The notes beneath the pieces are model-generated. The model was not told the origin of the DNA and ran no database searches. It saw nothing but the letters and a program-made list of their open reading frames with translations. Positions 8,383 through 27,954 of a stretch of 34,584 nucleotides of DNA are shown piece by piece. How positions within the stretch are numbered: the stretch's first letter is position 1; each line of letters begins with the position of its first letter. Position numbers and translations under genes: made by a program. Source of the stretch: a virus. The DNA lies in the IMG/VR virus record IMGVR_UViG_3300045988_085215, positions 1-34,584 of that record; one strand, given 5' to 3'.

Positions 8383-8784
8383 ATGAACAGTGCTTTAGCG
8401 ACAACAGAAGAATACGAAGAAGCCTATAGCACTCATCTTTCGGATACAGACAAAAAACGTGTTGAAACCCTATTAATGTATGCTTCCTCCCTTTTGAGGG
8501 TGGAGGCTTCTAATAGGGGCTATAATTTAGATATTATCATTTTGAAAGATGAGGCTAAAAAATACGTAGCAAAGATGGTAGTACTTGCGAGCGTAAAAAG
8601 GGCAATGCATACGAACGAGGTTACAGAAGCACCATTGGAGCAGTTTTCTCAGTCAGCGATGGGGTACACTGTTAGTGGTACATACTTAAACCCTGGGGAT
8701 GATATTTACTTCTTAAACAACGAACTAAAGCGATTAGGTATTTCCAAAAAGGCTCAAGGCTTTTTTATTGACTTATGGCATTAA
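8383..8784 (+). CDS. head-tail connector (gp6-like) protein
   Basis: Synteny after the capsid gene. The ATG at 8383 has 9-nt spacing from aaggag, whereas the track start at 8377 has only 3 nt. Confidence 0.5.
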   Translation: MNSALATTEEYEEAYSTHLSDTDKKRVETLLMYASSLLRVEASNRGYNLDIIILKDEAKKYVAKMVVLASVKRAMHTNEVTEAPLEQFSQSAMGYTVSGTYLNPGDDIYFLNNELKRLGISKKAQGFFIDLWH

Positions 8785-20092: not shown

Positions 20093-20341
20093 CTAATATA
20101 ATCTCATTCTAGCAACCCATTCATCACGGTCTAGAACTCTTACTTCTTCATAGTTGCAGTAAGGCTCTTTATTTTCCTTTTCCTTTACTGCTCCCATGAA
20201 TTCGAAGGCTTCATGTTTATCATTTGTTTCAAGGATTGGGGCGTATTGTGTAAGATACCCTTCCAAGTCATAACCGATTAACACAACCTCATATCTCATT
20301 GTTCTGTTTTCGTTTTCGTTTTCTTTTCTAATAATTTTCAT
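20093..20341 (-). CDS. hypothetical protein (82 aa)
   Basis: SD aaaaggaga lies upstream (reverse complement of 20345-20353), and a promoter lies directly upstream. Confidence 0.6.
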   Translation of the reverse strand: MKIIRKENENENRTMRYEVVLIGYDLEGYLTQYAPILETNDKHEAFEFMGAVKEKENKEPYCNYEEVRVLDRDEWVARMRLY

Positions 20342-20370
20342 TTTATTCTATCTCCTTTTCTATACTTCTA

Positions 20371-20401: not shown

Positions 20402-20920
20402 TTATTTGTTAATTTCCTCAAAAATAATTTGTTTAGCTAGCATATGATGGCATACATAAATACTACTAAATGGAGGGTTGATACTAGGCTTTTGGTCGTC
20501 ATAGTTCTTAAAATAAGATACCCTCTTATTCAAGTATAAGCACTCGAACTCGTTATCCCTAAACATTTCAAATCTTCTTTTACTCTCAAACAAGCCGACT
20601 ACTCCGACAAGCATTGCGAACGGCTTACCAATTTCAAAGAGTCTCTGCAATACCTCCGTTTTGAGGCTATACGGTGGATTAGAAATGATATAGTCACATT
20701 GTGGGGGATTCATTGTGAAGAAGTCCTCTCCGTTGTCTATGTGGCTATAAATGACCTTACAGCCCATATCTCTAAACTCCTTTACAAATAGACTTTGCTC
20801 AGTATCGAAAGGACACCACACAACCGAGCCTTTCTTTACATATTTCTTTATTGGTTCAATGGCATATGATGGGGTGTAGTACTCATCATTCTTGTTTTTT
20901 GCAACCTCAGAAACTATCAT
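20402..20920 (-). CDS. putative N6-adenine DNA methyltransferase (NPPY)
   Basis: 172 aa. Motifs are EYYTP near the N-terminus, VVWCPFD (AdoMet-site-like) and IISNPPYS (motif IV). Confidence 0.65.
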   Translation of the reverse strand: MIVSEVAKNKNDEYYTPSYAIEPIKKYVKKGSVVWCPFDTEQSLFVKEFRDMGCKVIYSHIDNGEDFFTMNPPQCDYIISNPPYSLKTEVLQRLFEIGKPFAMLVGVVGLFESKRRFEMFRDNEFECLYLNKRVSYFKNYDDQKPSINPPFSSIYVCHHMLAKQIIFEEINK

Positions 20921-22447: not shown

Positions 22448-23284
22448 TTATAGGCTTTCTAATAATCTGCCTAATTCATTATGTAAGCCGTTCAGTTCGT
22501 TGCTTTCTTCTTTCTTGTTATCTGCAACCATGAAACGCTTGCCACTACTAAACTTTTTAGGGTCTGTATAGTCAAAACTAAATTTGTAATATTGAACACG
22601 ACCATTCTTTTTTACTTTCTCATACTTGAGATTCTTGATACATTTACACTTTTCATTTAGTTCTTTTATAGCCTTGTTTATTGTATATCTTTCAAAGTCT
22701 GCTCTATTGAAATTTCCATTTGTAGCCATGTATGCTTCCTTTGGAAGTCCGAACATGTCTTTCAGTTGTTTAGTAGAATAATCAATACCCATGAAGTCAA
22801 TATTTGACATTTTCCATTTATCCTTCATCAAGTTCTGATATAACATCATAGAATATTTAGACTTTAAACCTATTAAATCATCATTTAAGAATCTTACGAA
22901 TTTATCCTTCAATTCATATACTAATGGCAAATAGTCGCTATCAAACATAATATAGAAAGTATTTTTTGATAATCTTACTCGTCTAATTATTGAACCACTC
23001 TCGAAGCCGTCTTCACTATTGAATTCTATCTTAGAGTTATCTCTTAGTTTGTCAAGTTCTTTTTTAATTCTAGTATAGCGTCCTGTCTCATTCTCTATAC
23101 CTAAAAAGTTAAATAGTTCCTGTTTGTTGATTGCTACTTCGTCTCTTTCATTTAATCCGTTTCTTAGTGAAGCAATGCTTACATAAAATAATTTTTGTTG
23201 TGTAACACTGAAACGAGTGCTCTTTTTTGCTAGTGTGTTACTCATTGCCACTACTTGATTTTTTAATGTGTTTCTATCTGTCAT
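22448..23284 (-). CDS. plasmid-type replication initiator (Rep_3 / RepB-like)
   Basis: 278 aa. N-terminal VVAMSNTLAKKSTRFSVTQQKLFYVSIASL and central FVRFLNDDLIGLKSKYSMMLYQNLMK match the Rep_3 pattern I recall (N.L...y.L...E, then F..f.l..l..lkSkYs.rlYelL). Iterons lie directly upstream. Confidence 0.75.
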   Translation of the reverse strand: MTDRNTLKNQVVAMSNTLAKKSTRFSVTQQKLFYVSIASLRNGLNERDEVAINKQELFNFLGIENETGRYTRIKKELDKLRDNSKIEFNSEDGFESGSIIRRVRLSKNTFYIMFDSDYLPLVYELKDKFVRFLNDDLIGLKSKYSMMLYQNLMKDKWKMSNIDFMGIDYSTKQLKDMFGLPKEAYMATNGNFNRADFERYTINKAIKELNEKCKCIKNLKYEKVKKNGRVQYYKFSFDYTDPKKFSSGKRFMVADNKKEESNELNGLHNELGRLLESL

Positions 23285-23468: not shown

Positions 23469-23539
23469 GGAACTGAAACATATAGAGAGAAAAGAAAAAA
23501 AGTCTTGACTTTAGATATAAATAGTAGTAGTATATATGT

Positions 23540-23640
23540 GTAGTAAGAAAGCAGTACTTACTACTAACTTGATTCGATTCTTTTCATAATCTATCTCCAT
23601 ATTTTTTAGAGGTGTATCAAAAGATACATCTCATTTTTTT
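23540..23640 (+). ncRNA. candidate sRNA, unit A (about 100 nt)
   Basis: Promoter TTGACT (23505-23510)-N17-TAGTAT (23528-23533). 5' stem gtagtaag/cttactac. An anti-SD/anti-start stretch cttttcataatctatctcc. Terminator gaggtgtatc-aaaa-gatacatctc followed by attttttt. Confidence 0.5.
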
Positions 23641-23698
23641 ATTAAGAAGATTTAAAAATGTATTGACTTTTTAACTATTTAGTGGTAGTATTATAAAT

Positions 23699-23810
23699 GT
23701 AGTAAGGGATAAGTACTTGCTACTAGTGATTTTCTAATGTTTTTCATTAATTGATATCTCCTTTCGTCTATAGAATTAGAGGTGTACTATTGTACATCTC
23801 TTTTTCTTTT
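23699..23810 (+). ncRNA. candidate sRNA, unit B (about 110 nt)
   Basis: Promoter TTGACT (23663-23668)-N17-TAGTAT (23686-23691). 5' stem gtagtaag/cttgctac. Stretch tttttcattaattgatatctccttt. Terminator agaggtgtac-tatt-gtacatctct followed by ttttctttt. Confidence 0.5.
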
Positions 23811-23876
23811 GTCTTAAATGCTTAAAATAAGGCTATAGAGAGACAAAACGCTAAACATGAAGAATAACACCAATTA

Positions 23877-23897
23877 TATATAAAAGTCGCTTAGAAT
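23877..23897. repeat. 21-bp exact direct repeat, copy 1 (tatataaaagtcgcttagaat)
   Basis: Identical to 24138-24158. A diverged copy lies at 22367-22389. Confidence 0.9.
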
Positions 23898-24137
23898 GGC
23901 TATAATGAGCAAATAAGGCTATATCTGTTTATATTATTAGTTTATGAATGTAGGTCTATCAACTAAACACGCCAAGGCGTAGCCTTAGAGACCATTACTG
24001 ATAATAAAATTAGAACACTAATATAGATGATTAAATGAGCGTAGCGCAGATAGACAAAGAAAGAGGGATAAGGCGCGCCACGGCTCAAAAATGGACGTAT
24101 GAGCGACGTTTACGCCTAATAGGTAATTTACCACGGT

Positions 24138-24158
24138 TATATAAAAGTCGCTTAGAAT
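24138..24158. repeat. 21-bp exact direct repeat, copy 2
   Basis: Identical to 23877-23897. The two copies bracket a 240-bp segment that contains a GC-rich island. Confidence 0.9.
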
Positions 24159-24250
24159 CGAAATTTAGGGCTATTTAGAGTGTATAAAAAAGTTATGGAG
24201 GATTTTAATTTGCACTAGACAAGTTATAAAATATATGCTAGTATATATGT

Positions 24251-24358
24251 GTACTAAGAGAACTTAGTACTTTGGTTGTTTGTTTTTTTCATTAGTATTT
24301 CGTCTCCTTTCTTATATCTTAAAGGAAGAACCCTTCGCAATGTCGGAGGGTTTTTCTT
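24251..24358 (+). ncRNA. candidate sRNA, unit C (about 105 nt)
   Basis: Promoter TAGACA (24216-24221)-N17-TAGTAT (24239-24244). 5' stem gtactaag-agaa-cttagtac. Stretch tttttttcattagtatttcgtctccttt. Terminator cccttcg-caatgt-cggaggg followed by tttttcttttt. Confidence 0.5.
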
Positions 24359-24385
24359 TTTGCTTAAGAATATTCATATTTATGC

Positions 24386-24414
24386 TTGACTATGATATAA
24401 ATGTGAGGTAGTAT
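24386..24414 (+). promoter_or_regulatory. early promoter TTGACT-N17-TAGTAT (fourth copy of the sRNA-type promoter)
   Basis: ttgactatgatataaatgtgaggtagtat. The predicted start site is only about 9 nt before the TTG start at 24430. Confidence 0.55.
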
Positions 24415-24429
24415 GTAAGTGCAAAAGGC

Positions 24430-24702
24430 TTGACATTAGAAGAAGCCTATATCTTAGGACGTGTAAAAGCATTTTCAGATGAACATCTTATTTATCGTGA
24501 AACTAATGAATCTATTGCTAAGGCAATTGGTAAAAGCGTAAAATCTGTTAAAAATTGGATTAATAGCCTTGTTAAAAAAGGATATTTACGTAAGGAACAT
24601 CAAGGAAGATGTAGAATGCTATATTCAACAGACAAAAAGGGACTGACTGAAAATATTGAAAATTGGAGAAAAAAAACACATGAATCATTTAAAAAAAATT
24701 GA
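24430..24702 (+). CDS. winged-helix/HTH DNA-binding protein (90 aa), possibly replication-associated
   Basis: TTG start with a very short leader. ESIAKAIGKSVKSVKNWINSLVKKGYLRK looks like an HTH plus wing. The gene lies upstream of the helicase gene. Confidence 0.5.
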   Translation: MTLEEAYILGRVKAFSDEHLIYRETNESIAKAIGKSVKSVKNWINSLVKKGYLRKEHQGRCRMLYSTDKKGLTENIENWRKKTHESFKKN

Positions 24703-26920: not shown

Positions 26921-26949
26921 TTGACATTGATGTATAAAAGCAGTAAGAT
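26921..26949 (+). promoter_or_regulatory. sigma-A-type promoter (TTGACA-N17-TAAGAT)
   Basis: atgcttgacattgatgtataaaagcagtaagat, upstream of the Cro-like gene. Confidence 0.5.
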
Positions 26950-26976
26950 AAAGAAGAAGAAAGGAGGGGTGTTAAA

Positions 26977-27183
26977 ATGAATAAAGATTTTGACATGGCA
27001 ATGTTTACACCGAGACAGGCTAGACATTTAAGCGGTTTGAGCGTCCAAAAGGTCGCAGATAAACTCGGGATTAATAGTGTAACCTATTTCAATAAGGAAA
27101 AAGGTAAAACAAGATTCTATGTAGATGAAGCAATCCTTTTTGCTCATATTGTCGGTGTTCCGTTTAAAAATATTAAATGGTAA
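26977..27183 (+). CDS. XRE/Cro-like HTH transcriptional regulator (68 aa)
   Basis: RQARHLSGLSVQKVADKLGINSVTYFNKEKG is a classical HTH_3 pattern. SD aaggagggg. Confidence 0.75.
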   Translation: MNKDFDMAMFTPRQARHLSGLSVQKVADKLGINSVTYFNKEKGKTRFYVDEAILFAHIVGVPFKNIKW

Positions 27184-27204
27184 ATAACAGGAGGATTTAT
27201 AAAC

Positions 27205-27954
27205 ATGTATAATTTAGAAGTATTTAAAAACGAGGACTTTGGTTCAGTTAGAGCACTAGTTATCAACGATGAGCCTTGGTTCGTTGGTAAGGACGTTGCA
27301 GAAGTGCTTGGATATAAAAATCCAAATGACGCATTGGGTAAACACGTTGAAAATGAAGATAAAGATACAATCGCGATTCGCGATTCTATCGGTAGAAACA
27401 GAAACACTCCAATTATTAACGAAAGTGGTTTATATAGCCTAGTGCTTTCAAGCAAGTTAGAGAGTGCTAAGAAGTTCAAGCGTTGGGTAACTAGTGAAGT
27501 ACTCCCAACACTGAGAAAAACAGGCAAGTATAGCATTAATGAAATGGATGGCAAAGAACTACTTGCAAGAGCAGTTATTGAAGCAAACAAACTCATCGAA
27601 GAAAAAGACAGACAGATTGAAGAAATGAAACCGAAGGCACTTTTTACGGATGCAGTTTCTGCAAGTAAAGGAAGCATAACTATTGGAGCACTTGCGAAAA
27701 TGCTTACTCGTAACGGAGTAACAATTGGACAGAACCGTTTATATGCATGGCTTAGAGAAAACGGCTATGTAGTCAAGGATGGCAGAAACAAGAACGTAGC
27801 AACGCAGAGATACGTAGAGCAAGGCTTATTTGAATTAAAGGAAAACTTGACATTTGAAAATGGCGAACCTGTTATTAGAAAACCTACCACAATGGTAACA
27901 GGAAAAGGACAGAAGTATTTTATTAATATGTTTCTAAGAGGATTAAAATTTTAA
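27205..27954 (+). CDS. antirepressor (Bro-N domain plus KilAC/ANT C-terminal domain)
   Basis: The N-terminus FGSVRALVINDEPWFVGKDVAEVLGY...ESGLYSLVLSSKLESAKKFKRWVTSEVLP is Bro-N-like. The C-terminus ITIGALAKMLTRNGVTIGQNRLYAWLRENGYV is KilAC-like. Confidence 0.85.
   Translation: MYNLEVFKNEDFGSVRALVINDEPWFVGKDVAEVLGYKNPNDALGKHVENEDKDTIAIRDSIGRNRNTPIINESGLYSLVLSSKLESAKKFKRWVTSEVLPTLRKTGKYSINEMDGKELLARAVIEANKLIEEKDRQIEEMKPKALFTDAVSASKGSITIGALAKMLTRNGVTIGQNRLYAWLRENGYVVKDGRNKNVATQRYVEQGLFELKENLTFENGEPVIRKPTTMVTGKGQKYFINMFLRGLKF

What the first reader, a model, noticed from the sequence alone, without database searches (positions are those of the whole stretch)
23505..24360. Three paralogous promoter / 5' hairpin / anti-SD / terminator cassettes: an undescribed sRNA family beside the origin
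The 1.1-kb non-coding gap between rep and the first early gene holds three units of identical architecture on the plus strand: A (23505-23640), B (23663-23810) and C (24216-24358). Each unit has the following parts, in order:
- A promoter with an unusual TAGTAT -10 (TTGACT-N17-TAGTAT in A and B, TAGACA-N17-TAGTAT in C).
- An 8-bp stem-loop 6-7 nt later, at the predicted 5' end: A gtagtaag/cttactac, B gtagtaag/cttgctac, C gtactaag/cttagtac. The arm changes in C are compensatory.
- A U-rich single-stranded stretch of about 45 nt containing ttttcat...tctcc(ttt). This is the exact complement of an SD followed by ATGAAAA.
- A strong intrinsic terminator. Those of A and B are homologous.

Predicted RNAs are about 100-112 nt, and no plus-strand ORF exceeds 7 codons. 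The opposite strand shows SD+ATG mini-ORFs of 7, 18 and 12 codons (23564-23587, 23691-23747, 24254-24292). I find no minus-strand promoter for them, and the peptides are not hydrophobic.

Partial complementarity exists to real translation initiation regions. Unit A matches ggagataga and atgaaaa of the 20341 gene. Unit B matches 11 nt (aaaggagatat) of the 21940 gene. Unit C matches 9 nt (aaaggagac) of the ORF at 64. Because all SDs in this genome are aaaggag-like, these matches are not statistically convincing.

Possible roles:
- trans-acting translational repressors of the minus-strand accessory operons
- copy-number or incompatibility RNAs of the adjacent Rep_3 origin
- decoy RNAs

A fourth copy of the same promoter (24386-24414) drives the first early protein gene.
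Basis: partly seen in the sequence, partly recalled or inferred. Interest (0 to 1): 0.75.

Follow-up and report, generated by a model that had tools for sequence, protein, structure and literature searches.

The report
Three phage-plasmid antisense small-RNA genes
The gap between the plasmid-type replication gene and the early genes of this uncultured phage holds three real-looking, conserved small-RNA genes whose exposed middle is the mirror image of a ribosome-binding site, so they most likely switch off translation of chosen messages (in relatives, the phage's own anti-repressor), a known kind of control in a previously undescribed RNA family.

Summary
Units A (23505-23640), B (23663-23810) and C (24216-24358) each have a promoter, an 8-bp hairpin at the 5' end, an unpaired U-rich stretch with CAU...CUCC, and an intrinsic terminator.

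All three units occur in the same order in all nine related phage-plasmid genomes found in metagenomes. The promoters, hairpins and terminators are kept, and the terminator stems show compensatory changes. A is at least as conserved as the flanking genes. The middle of B is hypervariable.

The minus-strand mini-ORFs are not conserved (lost start codons, frameshifts), so the plus-strand RNAs are the functional products.

No Rfam family reaches threshold. Unit A gives a sub-threshold, full-length match to streptococcal csRNA. It has the same design, but it lacks the CiaR promoter and the csRNA nonamer, so it is an analogue and not a member.

The target evidence concerns B:
- In relative L075, B is an antisense copy of the anti-repressor (ant) ribosome-binding site plus 17 codons: 76% over 67 nt, duplex z = -10.
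- In L073, B covers the start of another ant-family gene.
- In this window, B best matches the start region of gene 20341 (duplex z = -6.1) and rep codons 4-14 (z = -4.1).

No target was found for A or C.

Verdict: a new family of trans-acting anti-ribosome-binding-site sRNAs, with expression and targets still untested.

The parts
23505..23533 (+). Promoter of unit A (TTGACT-17-TAGTAT)
   Evidence: Scan. The -35, the 17-nt spacing and the -10 (TAGTAT or TAATAT) were found in 7 of 9 relatives by a regex scan and in an eighth, L078, by reading its sequence. In L058 the -35 region is deleted.
23540..23564 (+). Unit A 5' hairpin (GTAGTAAG / CTTACTAC), starting 1-3 nt from the predicted 5' end
   Evidence: Fold. 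A hairpin is present in all 10 A homologues, with 94% of cells paired in the alignment.
23578..23602 (+). Unit A unpaired anti-ribosome-binding-site core (UUCUUUUCAUAAUCUAUCUCCAUAU). CAU lies at 23585-87 and CUCC at 23595-98.
   Evidence: Unpaired in the MFE fold. Nearly invariant in 9 of 10 genomes. Its complement scores as an ordinary real start region in a PWM. It resembles the csRNA consensus core.
23609..23640 (+). Unit A intrinsic terminator plus U tract
   Evidence: Compensatory pairs are seen across relatives, e.g. UA:5, AU:3, CG:1 at one position.
23663..23691 (+). Promoter of unit B (TTGACT-17-TAGTAT, with TG upstream)
23699..23723 (+). Unit B 5' hairpin (GTAGTAAG / CTTGCUAC)
   Evidence: Relatives keep a hairpin here, but with different 3' arms and loop insertions of up to 33 nt.
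23724..23777 (+). Unit B unpaired, hypervariable targeting segment. CAU lies at 23745-47 and CUCC at 23758-61.
   Evidence: At least six sequence versions occur among 10 genomes. B is 58-68% identical to relatives, against 75-93% for A in the same seven genomes. It is complementary to the gene 20341 start region and to the rep 5' coding region.
23778..23810 (+). Unit B intrinsic terminator plus U tract (homologous to the A terminator)
   Evidence: The homologous terminator in L075 differs by two compensatory pairs, read from the sequence.
24216..24244 (+). Promoter of unit C (TAGACA-17-TAGTAT, with TG upstream)
24251..24270 (+). Unit C 5' hairpin (GTACTAAG / CTTAGTAC)
   Evidence: In relatives the stem is lengthened by matched arm changes (AAGAG/CTCTT, AAGAAG/CTTCTT, AAGA/TCTT) and the loops grow to 9-32 nt. 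90% of cells are paired.
24271..24322 (+). Unit C unpaired anti-ribosome-binding-site region. CAU lies at 24290-92 and CUCC at 24304-07. The core UUAGUAUUUCGUCUCCUUUCU is nearly invariant.
   Evidence: The anti-start CAU is lost in L053 (CGU) and L056 (UAU), while the CUCC block is kept.
24323..24358 (+). Unit C intrinsic terminator plus U tract
   Evidence: Fold. Compensatory pairs CG:4/UA:4/AU:1 and CG:5/GC:2/AU:1.
24386..24414 (+). Promoter D, a paralogue of promoter A, in front of the first early gene (24430-24702)
20324..20364 (-). Candidate target of unit B: the start region (-23..+18) of gene 20341 (82 aa, function unknown, own consensus promoter at 20398-20371)
   Evidence: Best of 72 start regions (duplex -34.5 kcal/mol). 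z = 4.7 against shuffles by alignment and z = -6.1 by duplex energy. Matching blocks are AAAGGAGATA, ATGAAAA and ATTAGAAAA. The homologous start regions in L052, L001 and L058 also match.
23245..23274 (-). Second, weaker candidate target of unit B: rep codons 4-14
   Evidence: 25 of 30 nt complementary. Alignment score 32 against 16.5 +/- 2.5 for shuffles. Duplex -38.6 kcal/mol, z = -4.1. Not reproduced in relatives.

Best explanation
**What it is.** A, B and C are three separately transcribed, paralogous small-RNA genes of about 100-112 nt. They sit beside the Rep_3 origin of a phage-plasmid-like temperate phage.

**Parts of each RNA**
- A 5'-terminal hairpin. It is inferred to protect against 5' exonuclease, as 5' hairpins do in Bacillota.
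- An unpaired segment that is the complement of a ribosome-binding site plus start codon (CUCC ... CAU).
- A Rho-independent terminator.

**How it works (inferred).** The unpaired segment pairs in trans with the translation initiation region of a target mRNA and the first codons after it. This occludes the ribosome and probably destabilises the message.

**Division of labour**
- A and C are conserved units. Their targets are not in the phage genome and are presumably host genes or genes of another element.
- B is an exchangeable targeting unit. Its promoter and terminator are kept while its interior is replaced by an antisense copy of the 5' end of some gene.

**Targets of B**
- In relatives the captured gene is the anti-repressor (ant), which gives an immI-like RNA brake on prophage induction or superinfection.
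- In this window the best candidates are the mRNA of the small accessory gene 20341 and, less strongly, rep.

**Shown.** The architecture, its conservation, the non-coding nature of the minus strand, and the complementarity statistics.

**Inferred.** Transcription of the units, pairing in vivo, and the regulatory outcome.
For: **Architecture**
- It is above chance.

**Conservation**
- The same three units occur in the same order in ten genomes whose rep genes are only 68-76% identical at the nucleotide level.
- A covariance model built from the ten A units recovers all ten at 60-113 bits, by construction. It also detects this window's B and C at 35.8 and 25.1 bits.
- 90% of stem cells are paired, against 25-63% when the partner columns are slid. 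The terminator stems show compensatory changes.
- Hairpin C keeps pairing through arm extensions and loop insertions.

**Coding on the minus strand is unlikely**
- Start codons are lost in A of L053 and in C of L053 and L056. Peptide lengths and frames differ between genomes.

**The minus-strand image looks like a real start region**
- It scores at percentiles 18-71 of real start regions (most at 30-71), while random positions average -15.

**Targets of B**
- L075: B is 76% identical over 67 nt to the antisense of ant from the SD to codon 17, with a 15-nt perfect block in its 5' hairpin loop. Its pseudo-peptide matches Ant at 14 of 19 residues. Alignment z = 16; duplex -65.8 kcal/mol, z = -10.
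- L073: B against the pRha/ANT start region, z = 6.2; duplex -49.9 kcal/mol, z = -5.3.
- Window: B against gene 20341 is top of 72 start regions, duplex z = -6.1.

**Known precedent for the design**
- The same design is established for csRNAs, which carry anti-SD plus anti-AUG between two stem-loops (PMC3091779). Unit A aligns full length to that Rfam model below threshold.
Against: - There are no expression data of any kind.
- No target was found for A or C, the two best-conserved units. This holds for the whole 34.6-kb contig and for up to 20 kb of each relative.
- Candidate A targets failed covariation tests: methylase 20920 and the dnaB start region.
- B's targets differ between genomes. 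For several relatives (L060, L054, L056, L072) no target stands out.
- Any CU-rich, U-rich RNA pairs fairly well with any AG-rich start region in this genome, so background scores are high.
- The 5' hairpins show wobble changes but no double compensatory change in the part that can be aligned.
- The host is unknown.
Confidence: 0.55

Rival explanations
1. Replicon control. The RNAs, above all B, act in trans on the rep mRNA of the adjacent Rep_3 origin. They would set copy number or incompatibility, as plasmid counter-transcripts do.
For: - The units lie next to the iterons and the AT-rich origin.
- B of this window is complementary to rep codons 4-14 at 25 of 30 nt. Its CUCC block can reach the rep SD. 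Duplex -38.6 kcal/mol, z = -4.1.
- The A model gives weak hits (38-39 bits, E about 5e-4) upstream of rep in small Rep_3 plasmids.
Against: - The units do not overlap the rep transcript. The rep promoter is at 23337-23309 and is conserved.
- B-to-rep complementarity is not significant in L060, L073, L075 and L054. A and C show none.
- The B type does not follow the iteron type, read from the alignment.
- The small-plasmid hits have no promoter and no CAU/CUCC core, and they overlap the Mob terminator.
Confidence: 0.12
2. The cassettes work through the act of transcription, not through the RNA product. They could be promoter-terminator units that activate or insulate the origin. They could also be a chain of terminated leaders that an antiterminator reads through into the early operon, in the way the lambda 6S RNA unit works.
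For: - All four promoters (A-D) point towards the early operon and are paralogous.
- Promoter A abuts the AT-rich origin region in this window.
- A hairpin right at the 5' end could be a protein-recognition site.
Against: - This does not explain why the unpaired middles of A and C are nearly invariant and mirror a start region.
- It does not explain why B's interior is an antisense copy of a gene's 5' end in L075 and L073.
- The early operon has its own promoter D after terminator C.
- In L056, L054 and L078 about 130 nt separate the origin from promoter A.
Confidence: 0.08
3. Evolutionary debris. The units are relics of partial duplications of gene 5' ends, picked up next to a recombination-prone origin, and now have no function.
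For: - The minus-strand images look like ordinary start regions followed by decayed ORFs.
- B in L075 is plainly a partial copy of ant.
- Contigs of relatives often break in this repeat-rich region.
Against: - In eight relatives compared, A is 60-93% and C 66-93% identical to the window. A exceeds rep (68-76%) in six of the eight and C in three of them.
- A promoter of this type and a terminator are present at every unit across the genomes, with one exception: the -35 of unit A is deleted in L058. Terminator changes are compensatory.
- The conserved elements are those of a plus-strand transcription unit, not those of the decayed minus-strand gene.
Confidence: 0.08
4. The minus strand is the functional one. 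The SD+ATG mini-ORFs would be translated as leader peptides or small toxins, with the plus-strand RNAs as their cis-antisense partners (type I toxin-antitoxin, or tap/CopA-like).
For: - Each unit has a well-spaced SD and ATG on the minus strand.
Against: - The start codon is lost in three unit homologues. Peptides range from 1 to more than 20 residues, with frameshifts.
- The peptides are not hydrophobic in this window.
- There is no conserved minus-strand promoter. The two weak sites at 23962-23933 and 23902-23873 are not kept in relatives.
Confidence: 0.03

Closest known systems
csRNAs (cia-dependent small RNAs, ccnA-E) of Streptococcus, Rfam RF02379
   Same: - Several sibling sRNA genes per genome, each with its own promoter and terminator.
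- A 5' stem-loop plus a terminator stem-loop.
[quoted passage not shown]
- Proposed or shown to block translation initiation of several mRNAs (PMC3091779).
- Unit A aligns end to end with the Rfam model. Its core UUUUCAUAAUcUAUCUCC compares with the consensus UUUUUUCAUAAU.AAUCUCC.
   Different: - The score is 22 bits against a gathering score of 57. The A homologue in L056 gives no csRNA hit at all.
- The promoter is TTGACT/TAGACA-17-TAGTAT, with no CiaR repeat NTTAAG-N5-TTTAAG.
- There is no [A/C]UCCUAAA[A/C] nonamer after the first stem-loop.
- The units are encoded on a phage-plasmid of an unidentified host, not on a streptococcal chromosome.
- One unit has an exchangeable interior copied from phage genes.
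c4 antisense RNA of the immI region of phages P1 and P7, and sar RNA of P22 (from established knowledge, not tested with a paper here)
   Same: - A small phage RNA blocks the ribosome-binding region in front of the anti-repressor gene and so helps keep the prophage quiet.
- P1 is itself a plasmid prophage.
- Sequence variation in the RNA and its target gives different specificities (P1 versus P7). The hypervariable B unit is comparable.
- In L075 and L073, B covers the ant start region.
   Different: - c4 is cut out of the same transcript that carries its target. sar is cis-antisense.
- Here the RNA has its own promoter and terminator and lies about 3 kb from ant.
- There is no Rfam hit to any described family, C4 included.
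- In this window B does not match ant (z = 0.9). It matches gene 20341 and rep instead.
- A and C have no phage target.
LhrC sibling sRNAs of Listeria and other CU-rich SD-blocking sRNAs of Bacillota (from established knowledge)
   Same: - Multicopy sRNAs of about 100 nt, each with its own promoter and terminator.
- They use CU-rich single-stranded motifs to pair with SD regions.
   Different: - No sequence or model similarity was found.
- Those are chromosomal and stress-regulated.
- The units here carry one CUCC plus an anti-start CAU, and they are phage-borne.
Plasmid counter-transcript RNAs (ctRNA; e.g. RF00489, and RNAIII of the pIP501 family)
   Same: - A small, terminator-ended RNA next to a rep gene.
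- Weak Rfam hits (14.6-18.7 bits) fall on the terminators of B and C.
   Different: - ctRNAs are transcribed from the strand opposite the rep leader and overlap it. These units lie beyond the origin and do not overlap rep.
- The Rfam hits cover only the terminator hairpins.

Membership tests
csRNA (RF02379) | Reaches the curated Rfam score for the family | tested here: not met
   No hit at the gathering threshold in the window or in 9 relatives. Unit A scores 22.2 bits against 57. There is no hit for the A homologue of L056.
csRNA (RF02379) | CiaR-dependent promoter: direct repeat NTTAAG-N5-TTTAAG ten bases upstream of the -10 (PMC3091779) | tested here: not met
   The promoters are TTGACT or TAGACA, a 17-nt spacer, then TAGTAT. 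No TTTAAG repeat is present.
csRNA (RF02379) | Two stem-loops with anti-SD and anti-AUG in the unpaired region between them | tested here: met
   Folds. CAU and CUCC are unpaired in A, B and C.
csRNA (RF02379) | Conserved nonamer [A/C]UCCUAAA[A/C] just after the first stem-loop | tested here: not met
   After the hairpin the sequence is UAACUUGAUUCG in A, UAGUGAUUUUCUAAUG in B and UUUGGUUGUUUG in C.
P1/P7 c4 - immI type antisense control of ant | The RNA is complementary to the ribosome-binding region in front of the anti-repressor operon | tested here: inconclusive
   Met in relatives L075 (z = 16) and L073 (z = 6.2). Not met in this window, where B against Ant 27205 gives z = 0.9.
P1/P7 c4 - immI type antisense control of ant | The RNA is processed from the same transcript that carries its target (c4-icd-ant operon) | tested here: not met
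   Each unit has its own promoter and terminator. The units lie about 3 kb upstream of ant, separated from it by other genes and terminators.
Plasmid counter-transcript (ctRNA) copy-number control | Transcribed antisense to, and overlapping, the rep mRNA leader | tested here: not met
   The rep promoter at 23337-23309 lies next to rep. The units start at 23505, on the far side of the iterons.
Type I toxin-antitoxin | A conserved small hydrophobic toxin ORF with its own promoter, opposite the antisense RNA | tested here: not met
   The mini-ORFs are not conserved in start codon, frame or length. No conserved minus-strand promoter was found.
Trans-acting base-pairing sRNA (general class) | A discrete stable transcript made in vivo | not testable with these tools
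   Only promoter, terminator and fold predictions and their conservation are available.

The most novel reading that the evidence does not exclude
**Modular antisense platform.** The cassettes could form a modular RNA platform carried by a group of gut phage-plasmids. A fixed frame of promoter, 5' hairpin and terminator would take in new interiors by capturing gene 5' ends in antisense orientation.

**Evidence pointing that way**
- In L075, B differs from the resident ant at 8 of the 17 aligned codons. Four of those differences are synonymous and two are conservative replacements.
- This suggests the copy came from another phage's ant allele.

**What it would mean**
- The variable unit would be an RNA-encoded immunity or exclusion code aimed at superinfecting relatives.
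- The two invariant units (A and C) would mimic host csRNA-type regulators to shut off host messages such as competence or surface-receptor genes.
Probability: 0.2. Interest if true: 0.8.

Novelty: new variant of a known kind. Interest (0 to 1): 0.6.

Why it matters
Regulatory RNAs of temperate phages of Gram-positive gut bacteria are almost unknown. RNA control of anti-repressors is textbook only for P1, P7 and P22.

If these cassettes are expressed, three points would follow:
- Phage-plasmids of Bacillota would be shown to carry several sibling anti-ribosome-binding-site RNAs.
- One of these RNAs is re-targeted between close relatives by swapping its interior.
- Two of them are conserved and aimed outside the phage.

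This gives a testable handle on three open questions: how such elements hold lysogeny without an obvious repressor at the switch region, how they exclude relatives, and how they reprogramme the host. The cassette frame might also serve as a compact natural scaffold for designed antisense RNAs in low-GC bacteria.

Tried and rejected
**Searches for relatives and known families**
- Rfam at gathering scores on the window and on 9 relatives found nothing relevant. In E-value mode there were only sub-threshold hits.
- blastn of the whole gap, and of A and C alone, against the phage and plasmid collections gave no homologue. Only start-region-like chance matches appeared, at E >= 0.09.
- A pattern scan of viral contigs with promoter plus hairpin gave 47 chance hits. 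One double hit was a leucine-rich-repeat gene.
- Exact scans of genome, metagenome and viral collections with the C core gave only chance matches. The A core, scanned in viral contigs only, gave one true relative, L072.

**Host identification (failed)**
- A Rep peptide scan of species genomes found none.
- The closest plasmid Reps are 30% identical (Spiroplasma, Amedibacterium).
- The portal protein is about 50% identical to those of Streptococcus and Lactococcus phages.
- Relatives of the endolysin carry no organism names.

**Targets for A and C**
- All start regions were tested, and the whole window was scanned with sliding windows. Nothing rose above background.
- Methylase 20920 was rejected as a target of A. 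A changed in L058 without a matching change in the target.
- The dnaB start region was rejected. It changes in L060 and L073 while A stays the same.
- No gene in any locus starts with the pseudo-peptides MKRI(E/K) or MKK(Q/T).
- C against the DUF739 or HTH gene upstream of ant is suggestive in L056 and L075 but not consistent.

**Other tests**
- B against ant in L060 and L054 matched outside the start region and was no better than other genes. These matches were not counted.
- Small Rep_3 plasmids gave CM hits of 38-39 bits. These have no promoter or core and overlap the Mob terminator, so they were judged inconclusive.
- Gene 20341 has no Pfam, PHROG, NCBIfam or PADLOC family. Its only homologues are within this phage group.
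- The conserved element between B and C was tested as a structured RNA. It has no covariation support and no conserved ORF.
Full report
**1. What is in the sequence**

The 1.15-kb gap lies between the Rep_3 initiator gene (22448-23284, minus strand) and the first early gene (24430-24702, HTH_36; DnaB follows). It begins with iterons and an AT-rich stretch. Three plus-strand units follow.

The consensus scan finds:
- TTGACT-17-TAGTAT at 23505-23533 and 23663-23691.
- TAGACA-17-TAGTAT at 24216-24244.
- A fourth TTGACT-17-TAGTAT at 24386-24414.
- Six terminator-like sites, against 0.4 expected.

Folding the predicted RNAs gives the same picture three times: an 8-bp hairpin at the very 5' end, an unpaired U-rich middle, and a strong terminator. 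Energies are 3.4-4.3 SD better than dinucleotide shuffles. CAU and CUCC lie in the unpaired part of each unit. Two corrections apply: plus-strand ORFs do exist if GTG and TTG starts are counted, and the roughly 400 bp between B and C is a conserved element of its own.

**2. Relatives**

DNA searches of the phage and plasmid collections found nothing. The Rep protein has many relatives in metagenome assemblies. The contigs around them gave eight further genomes with the complete gap (L053, L054/55, L056, L058, L060-62, L073/74, L075, L077/78). A DNA pattern gave one more, L072.

All of them have the same genome layout: Rep_3 and small accessory genes on one side, and DnaD/HTH_36, DnaB, Bro/ANT anti-repressors, YqaJ and RecT on the other. 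Lysis and tail genes lie beyond. This is the layout of a siphovirus with a plasmid replicon. The host could not be identified. Related small Rep_3 plasmids come from human gut samples.

**3. Conservation**

Units A, B and C are present in that order in all ten genomes.
- The -35, the 17-nt spacer and the -10 (TAGTAT or TAATAT) are kept.
- A covariance model of A recovers every A at 60-113 bits. It also picks up this window's B and C at 35.8 and 25.1 bits.
- A is 75-93% identical to the window in seven of the eight relatives compared and 60% in L075. Rep is 68-76% and dnaB 70-80% at the nucleotide level. B is only 58-68% identical outside its closest relative.
- About 90% of stem cells are paired, against 25-63% when the partner columns are slid.
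- The terminator stems carry compensatory changes: UA/AU/CG at one A position, and CG/UA/AU and CG/GC/AU at two C positions.
- The 5' hairpin of A is nearly invariant.
- The 5' hairpin of C is kept through matched arm extensions (AAG/CTT, AAGAG/CTCTT, AAGAAG/CTTCTT) and loop insertions of up to about 30 nt.
- The 5' hairpin of B is kept with different 3' arms and a 33-nt loop insertion.

This pattern fits selection on a plus-strand RNA.

**4. The minus strand is not coding**

The complement of each middle looks like a normal ribosome-binding site. In a weight matrix built from 62 genes of the window, the pseudo-sites score like average real sites, while random positions average -15.

The ORFs behind them are not conserved.
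- The ATG is lost in A of L053 and in C of L053 and L056.
- Lengths run from 1 to more than 20 codons.
- Frames differ between genomes.

The two weak minus-strand promoter-like sites in the gap are not conserved. The terminators work only in the plus direction, as read from the sequence.

**5. What the middles recognise**

For every sRNA I scored complementarity (G-U allowed) to the 5' regions of all genes in its own genome, and against shuffled sRNAs. I also computed duplex energies. A and C never stand out. B does, but with a different partner in different genomes.

- **L075.** B (8502-8611) is the antisense of the AntA/ANT gene from its SD to codon 17. It is 76% identical over 67 nt, with a 15-nt perfect block that sits in the loop of B's own 5' hairpin. 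Its pseudo-peptide is MNDLIKINYNADRITLPTA, against Ant MAELIKVNYNADRITLSAR. Alignment z = 16; duplex -65.8 kcal/mol, z = -10. It also covers the start of the second ant-family gene (z = 4.5). Its promoter and terminator are homologous to those of the window's B. The terminator differs by two compensatory pairs.
- **L073.** B covers the SD, the start codon and the first codons of the pRha/ANT gene (z = 6.2; duplex -49.9 kcal/mol, z = -5.3).
- **L078.** B matches a 54-aa early gene (z about 5). However, L056, which has the same B type, does not seem to have that gene.
- **This window.** B is the best partner of the start region of gene 20341 among 72 start regions. The match runs from -23 to +18 through the blocks AAAGGAGATA, ATGAAAA and ATTAGAAAA. 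Duplex -34.5 kcal/mol, z = -6.1. The start regions of 20341 homologues in L052, L001 and L058 also match. B can also pair with rep codons 4-14 (25 of 30 nt; z about 4).

Gene 20341 has its own consensus promoter (20398-20371), no known family, and relatives only within this phage group.

**6. Mechanism proposed**

Shown:
- Three conserved transcription-unit-like cassettes.
- Their only invariant single-stranded content is an anti-SD (CUCC) with, in most homologues, an anti-start CAU.
- One cassette has an interior that is replaced between relatives by antisense copies of gene 5' ends.

Inferred:
- The RNAs are made and are stabilised by the 5' hairpin.
- They pair in trans with translation initiation regions, blocking ribosome entry.
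- Where B is aimed at ant, this would be a brake on anti-repressor synthesis. That is the logic of the immI regions of P1/P7 (c4 RNA) and P22 (sar RNA), which I cite from established knowledge.
- In this window the likeliest B target is gene 20341, with rep as a weaker second.
- A and C are invariant and have no partner in the phage, so they probably act on host messages or on another element. I could not test this.

**7. Comparison with known families**

The closest design is that of the streptococcal csRNAs. These are two to six sibling genes per genome, most with two stem-loops, carrying anti-SD plus anti-AUG in the unpaired region, and proposed to block initiation (PMC3091779).

- Unit A aligns end to end with the Rfam csRNA model, with a nearly identical core. 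The score is only 22 bits against the required 57.
- The A homologue of L056 gives no hit.
- The two other defining features, the CiaR-repeat promoter and the UCCUAAA nonamer, are absent.

The units therefore work like csRNAs but are not members of that family, and the likeness may be convergent. They also differ from the other known types:
- They are not counter-transcripts, because they do not overlap the rep mRNA.
- They are not type I antitoxins, because there is no conserved toxin ORF.
- They are not c4-type RNAs in organisation, because they have their own promoter and terminator and are not co-transcribed with the target.

**8. Rivals**

- Replicon control rests on one window-specific match and on position (confidence 0.12).
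- A transcription-only role, or a chain of antiterminated leaders, does not explain the conserved anti-site cores or the captured ant fragment (0.08).
- Non-functional relics are hard to reconcile with the conservation of promoters, terminators and cores (0.08).
- Minus-strand peptides are contradicted by the loss of start codons (0.03).

**9. Novelty and score**

The kind of element is known: trans-acting sRNAs that mask ribosome-binding sites, and RNA control of ant. The family is not described in Rfam or in the phage and plasmid collections searched.

Three features go beyond known examples:
- Three sibling cassettes beside a phage-plasmid origin.
- One cassette with a swappable interior.
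- Two conserved cassettes with targets outside the phage.

I rate it a new variant of a known kind, with interest 0.6. The score is limited by the absence of expression data, of a host, and of targets for A and C.

Noticed in passing
window 23811-24208 (direct repeats at 23879-23897 and 24140-24158): A conserved non-coding element of about 400 bp lies between units B and C. It is bounded by 19-bp direct repeats (TATAAAAGTCGCTTAGAAT). Blocks such as CCTTAGAGACCATT and AAAAGTCGCTTAGAAT are invariant in 7 genomes, and GGCGCGCCACGGCTC is nearly so. The element is deleted between the repeats in L053 and is shorter in L072 and L078. It has no covariation support as a structured RNA and no conserved ORF. 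It may be a protein-binding or partition site.
   Followed up: partly
window 24386-24702, compared with L053, L054, L056, L060, L073, L075 and L078 downstream of promoter D: The window's first early gene is 90 aa. In eight relatives it is 143-159 aa with a DnaD_N-like N-terminus; in L077 it is called at 121 aa. The window also lacks the operator-like repeats that follow promoter D in relatives. These repeats differ between genomes: TTAGACA x3, TGTTCATATAGAACA-like x3-5, and GGTTAAATATTAACC. The window looks like a deletion variant, and the repeats look like immunity-type operators.
   Followed up: partly
window 22240-22213, 21580-21553 and 20398-20371 (minus strand): Three perfect TTGACA-16-TATAAT promoters head the small minus-strand accessory gene units. 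One of these units contains an orphan EcoRI-like methylase fragment gene (20402-20920). This promoter class differs from the TAGTAT/TAATAT class shared by the sRNA units, promoter D and the ant module.
   Followed up: no
window 26921-27954: A repressor-like 68-aa HTH gene (26977-27183) and an Ant anti-repressor gene (27205-27954) lie behind their own promoter-like site (26921-26949). This is an immI-like module. No CI-type repressor gene lies at the rep/early divergent region.
   Followed up: partly
L075 8502-8611 compared with L075 4553-5302: The ant fragment inside unit B differs from the resident ant at 8 of the 17 aligned codons. Four of these differences are synonymous and two are conservative replacements (D/E, I/V). 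This suggests that it was captured from a diverged ant allele of another phage.
   Followed up: partly
L079-L083: Plasmids of about 3.7 kb (Rep_3 + RNase_T + Mob_Pre) occur in human gut metagenomes, including Hadza samples. Their Rep is about 61-63% identical to the window's. They are sometimes assembled as tandem copies.
   Followed up: partly
L072 5711-5804: A group II intron domain hit (RF00029, 41.5 bits, above the gathering score) lies in a related phage contig.
   Followed up: no
L001-L003, L051, L052, L057, L059 (contig ends): Many assemblies of related phages break inside this intergenic region, within about 80-210 nt of rep or of the first early gene. The repeated promoters, terminators and iterons are the probable cause. 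The cassettes are therefore likely under-represented in assembled data.
   Followed up: no
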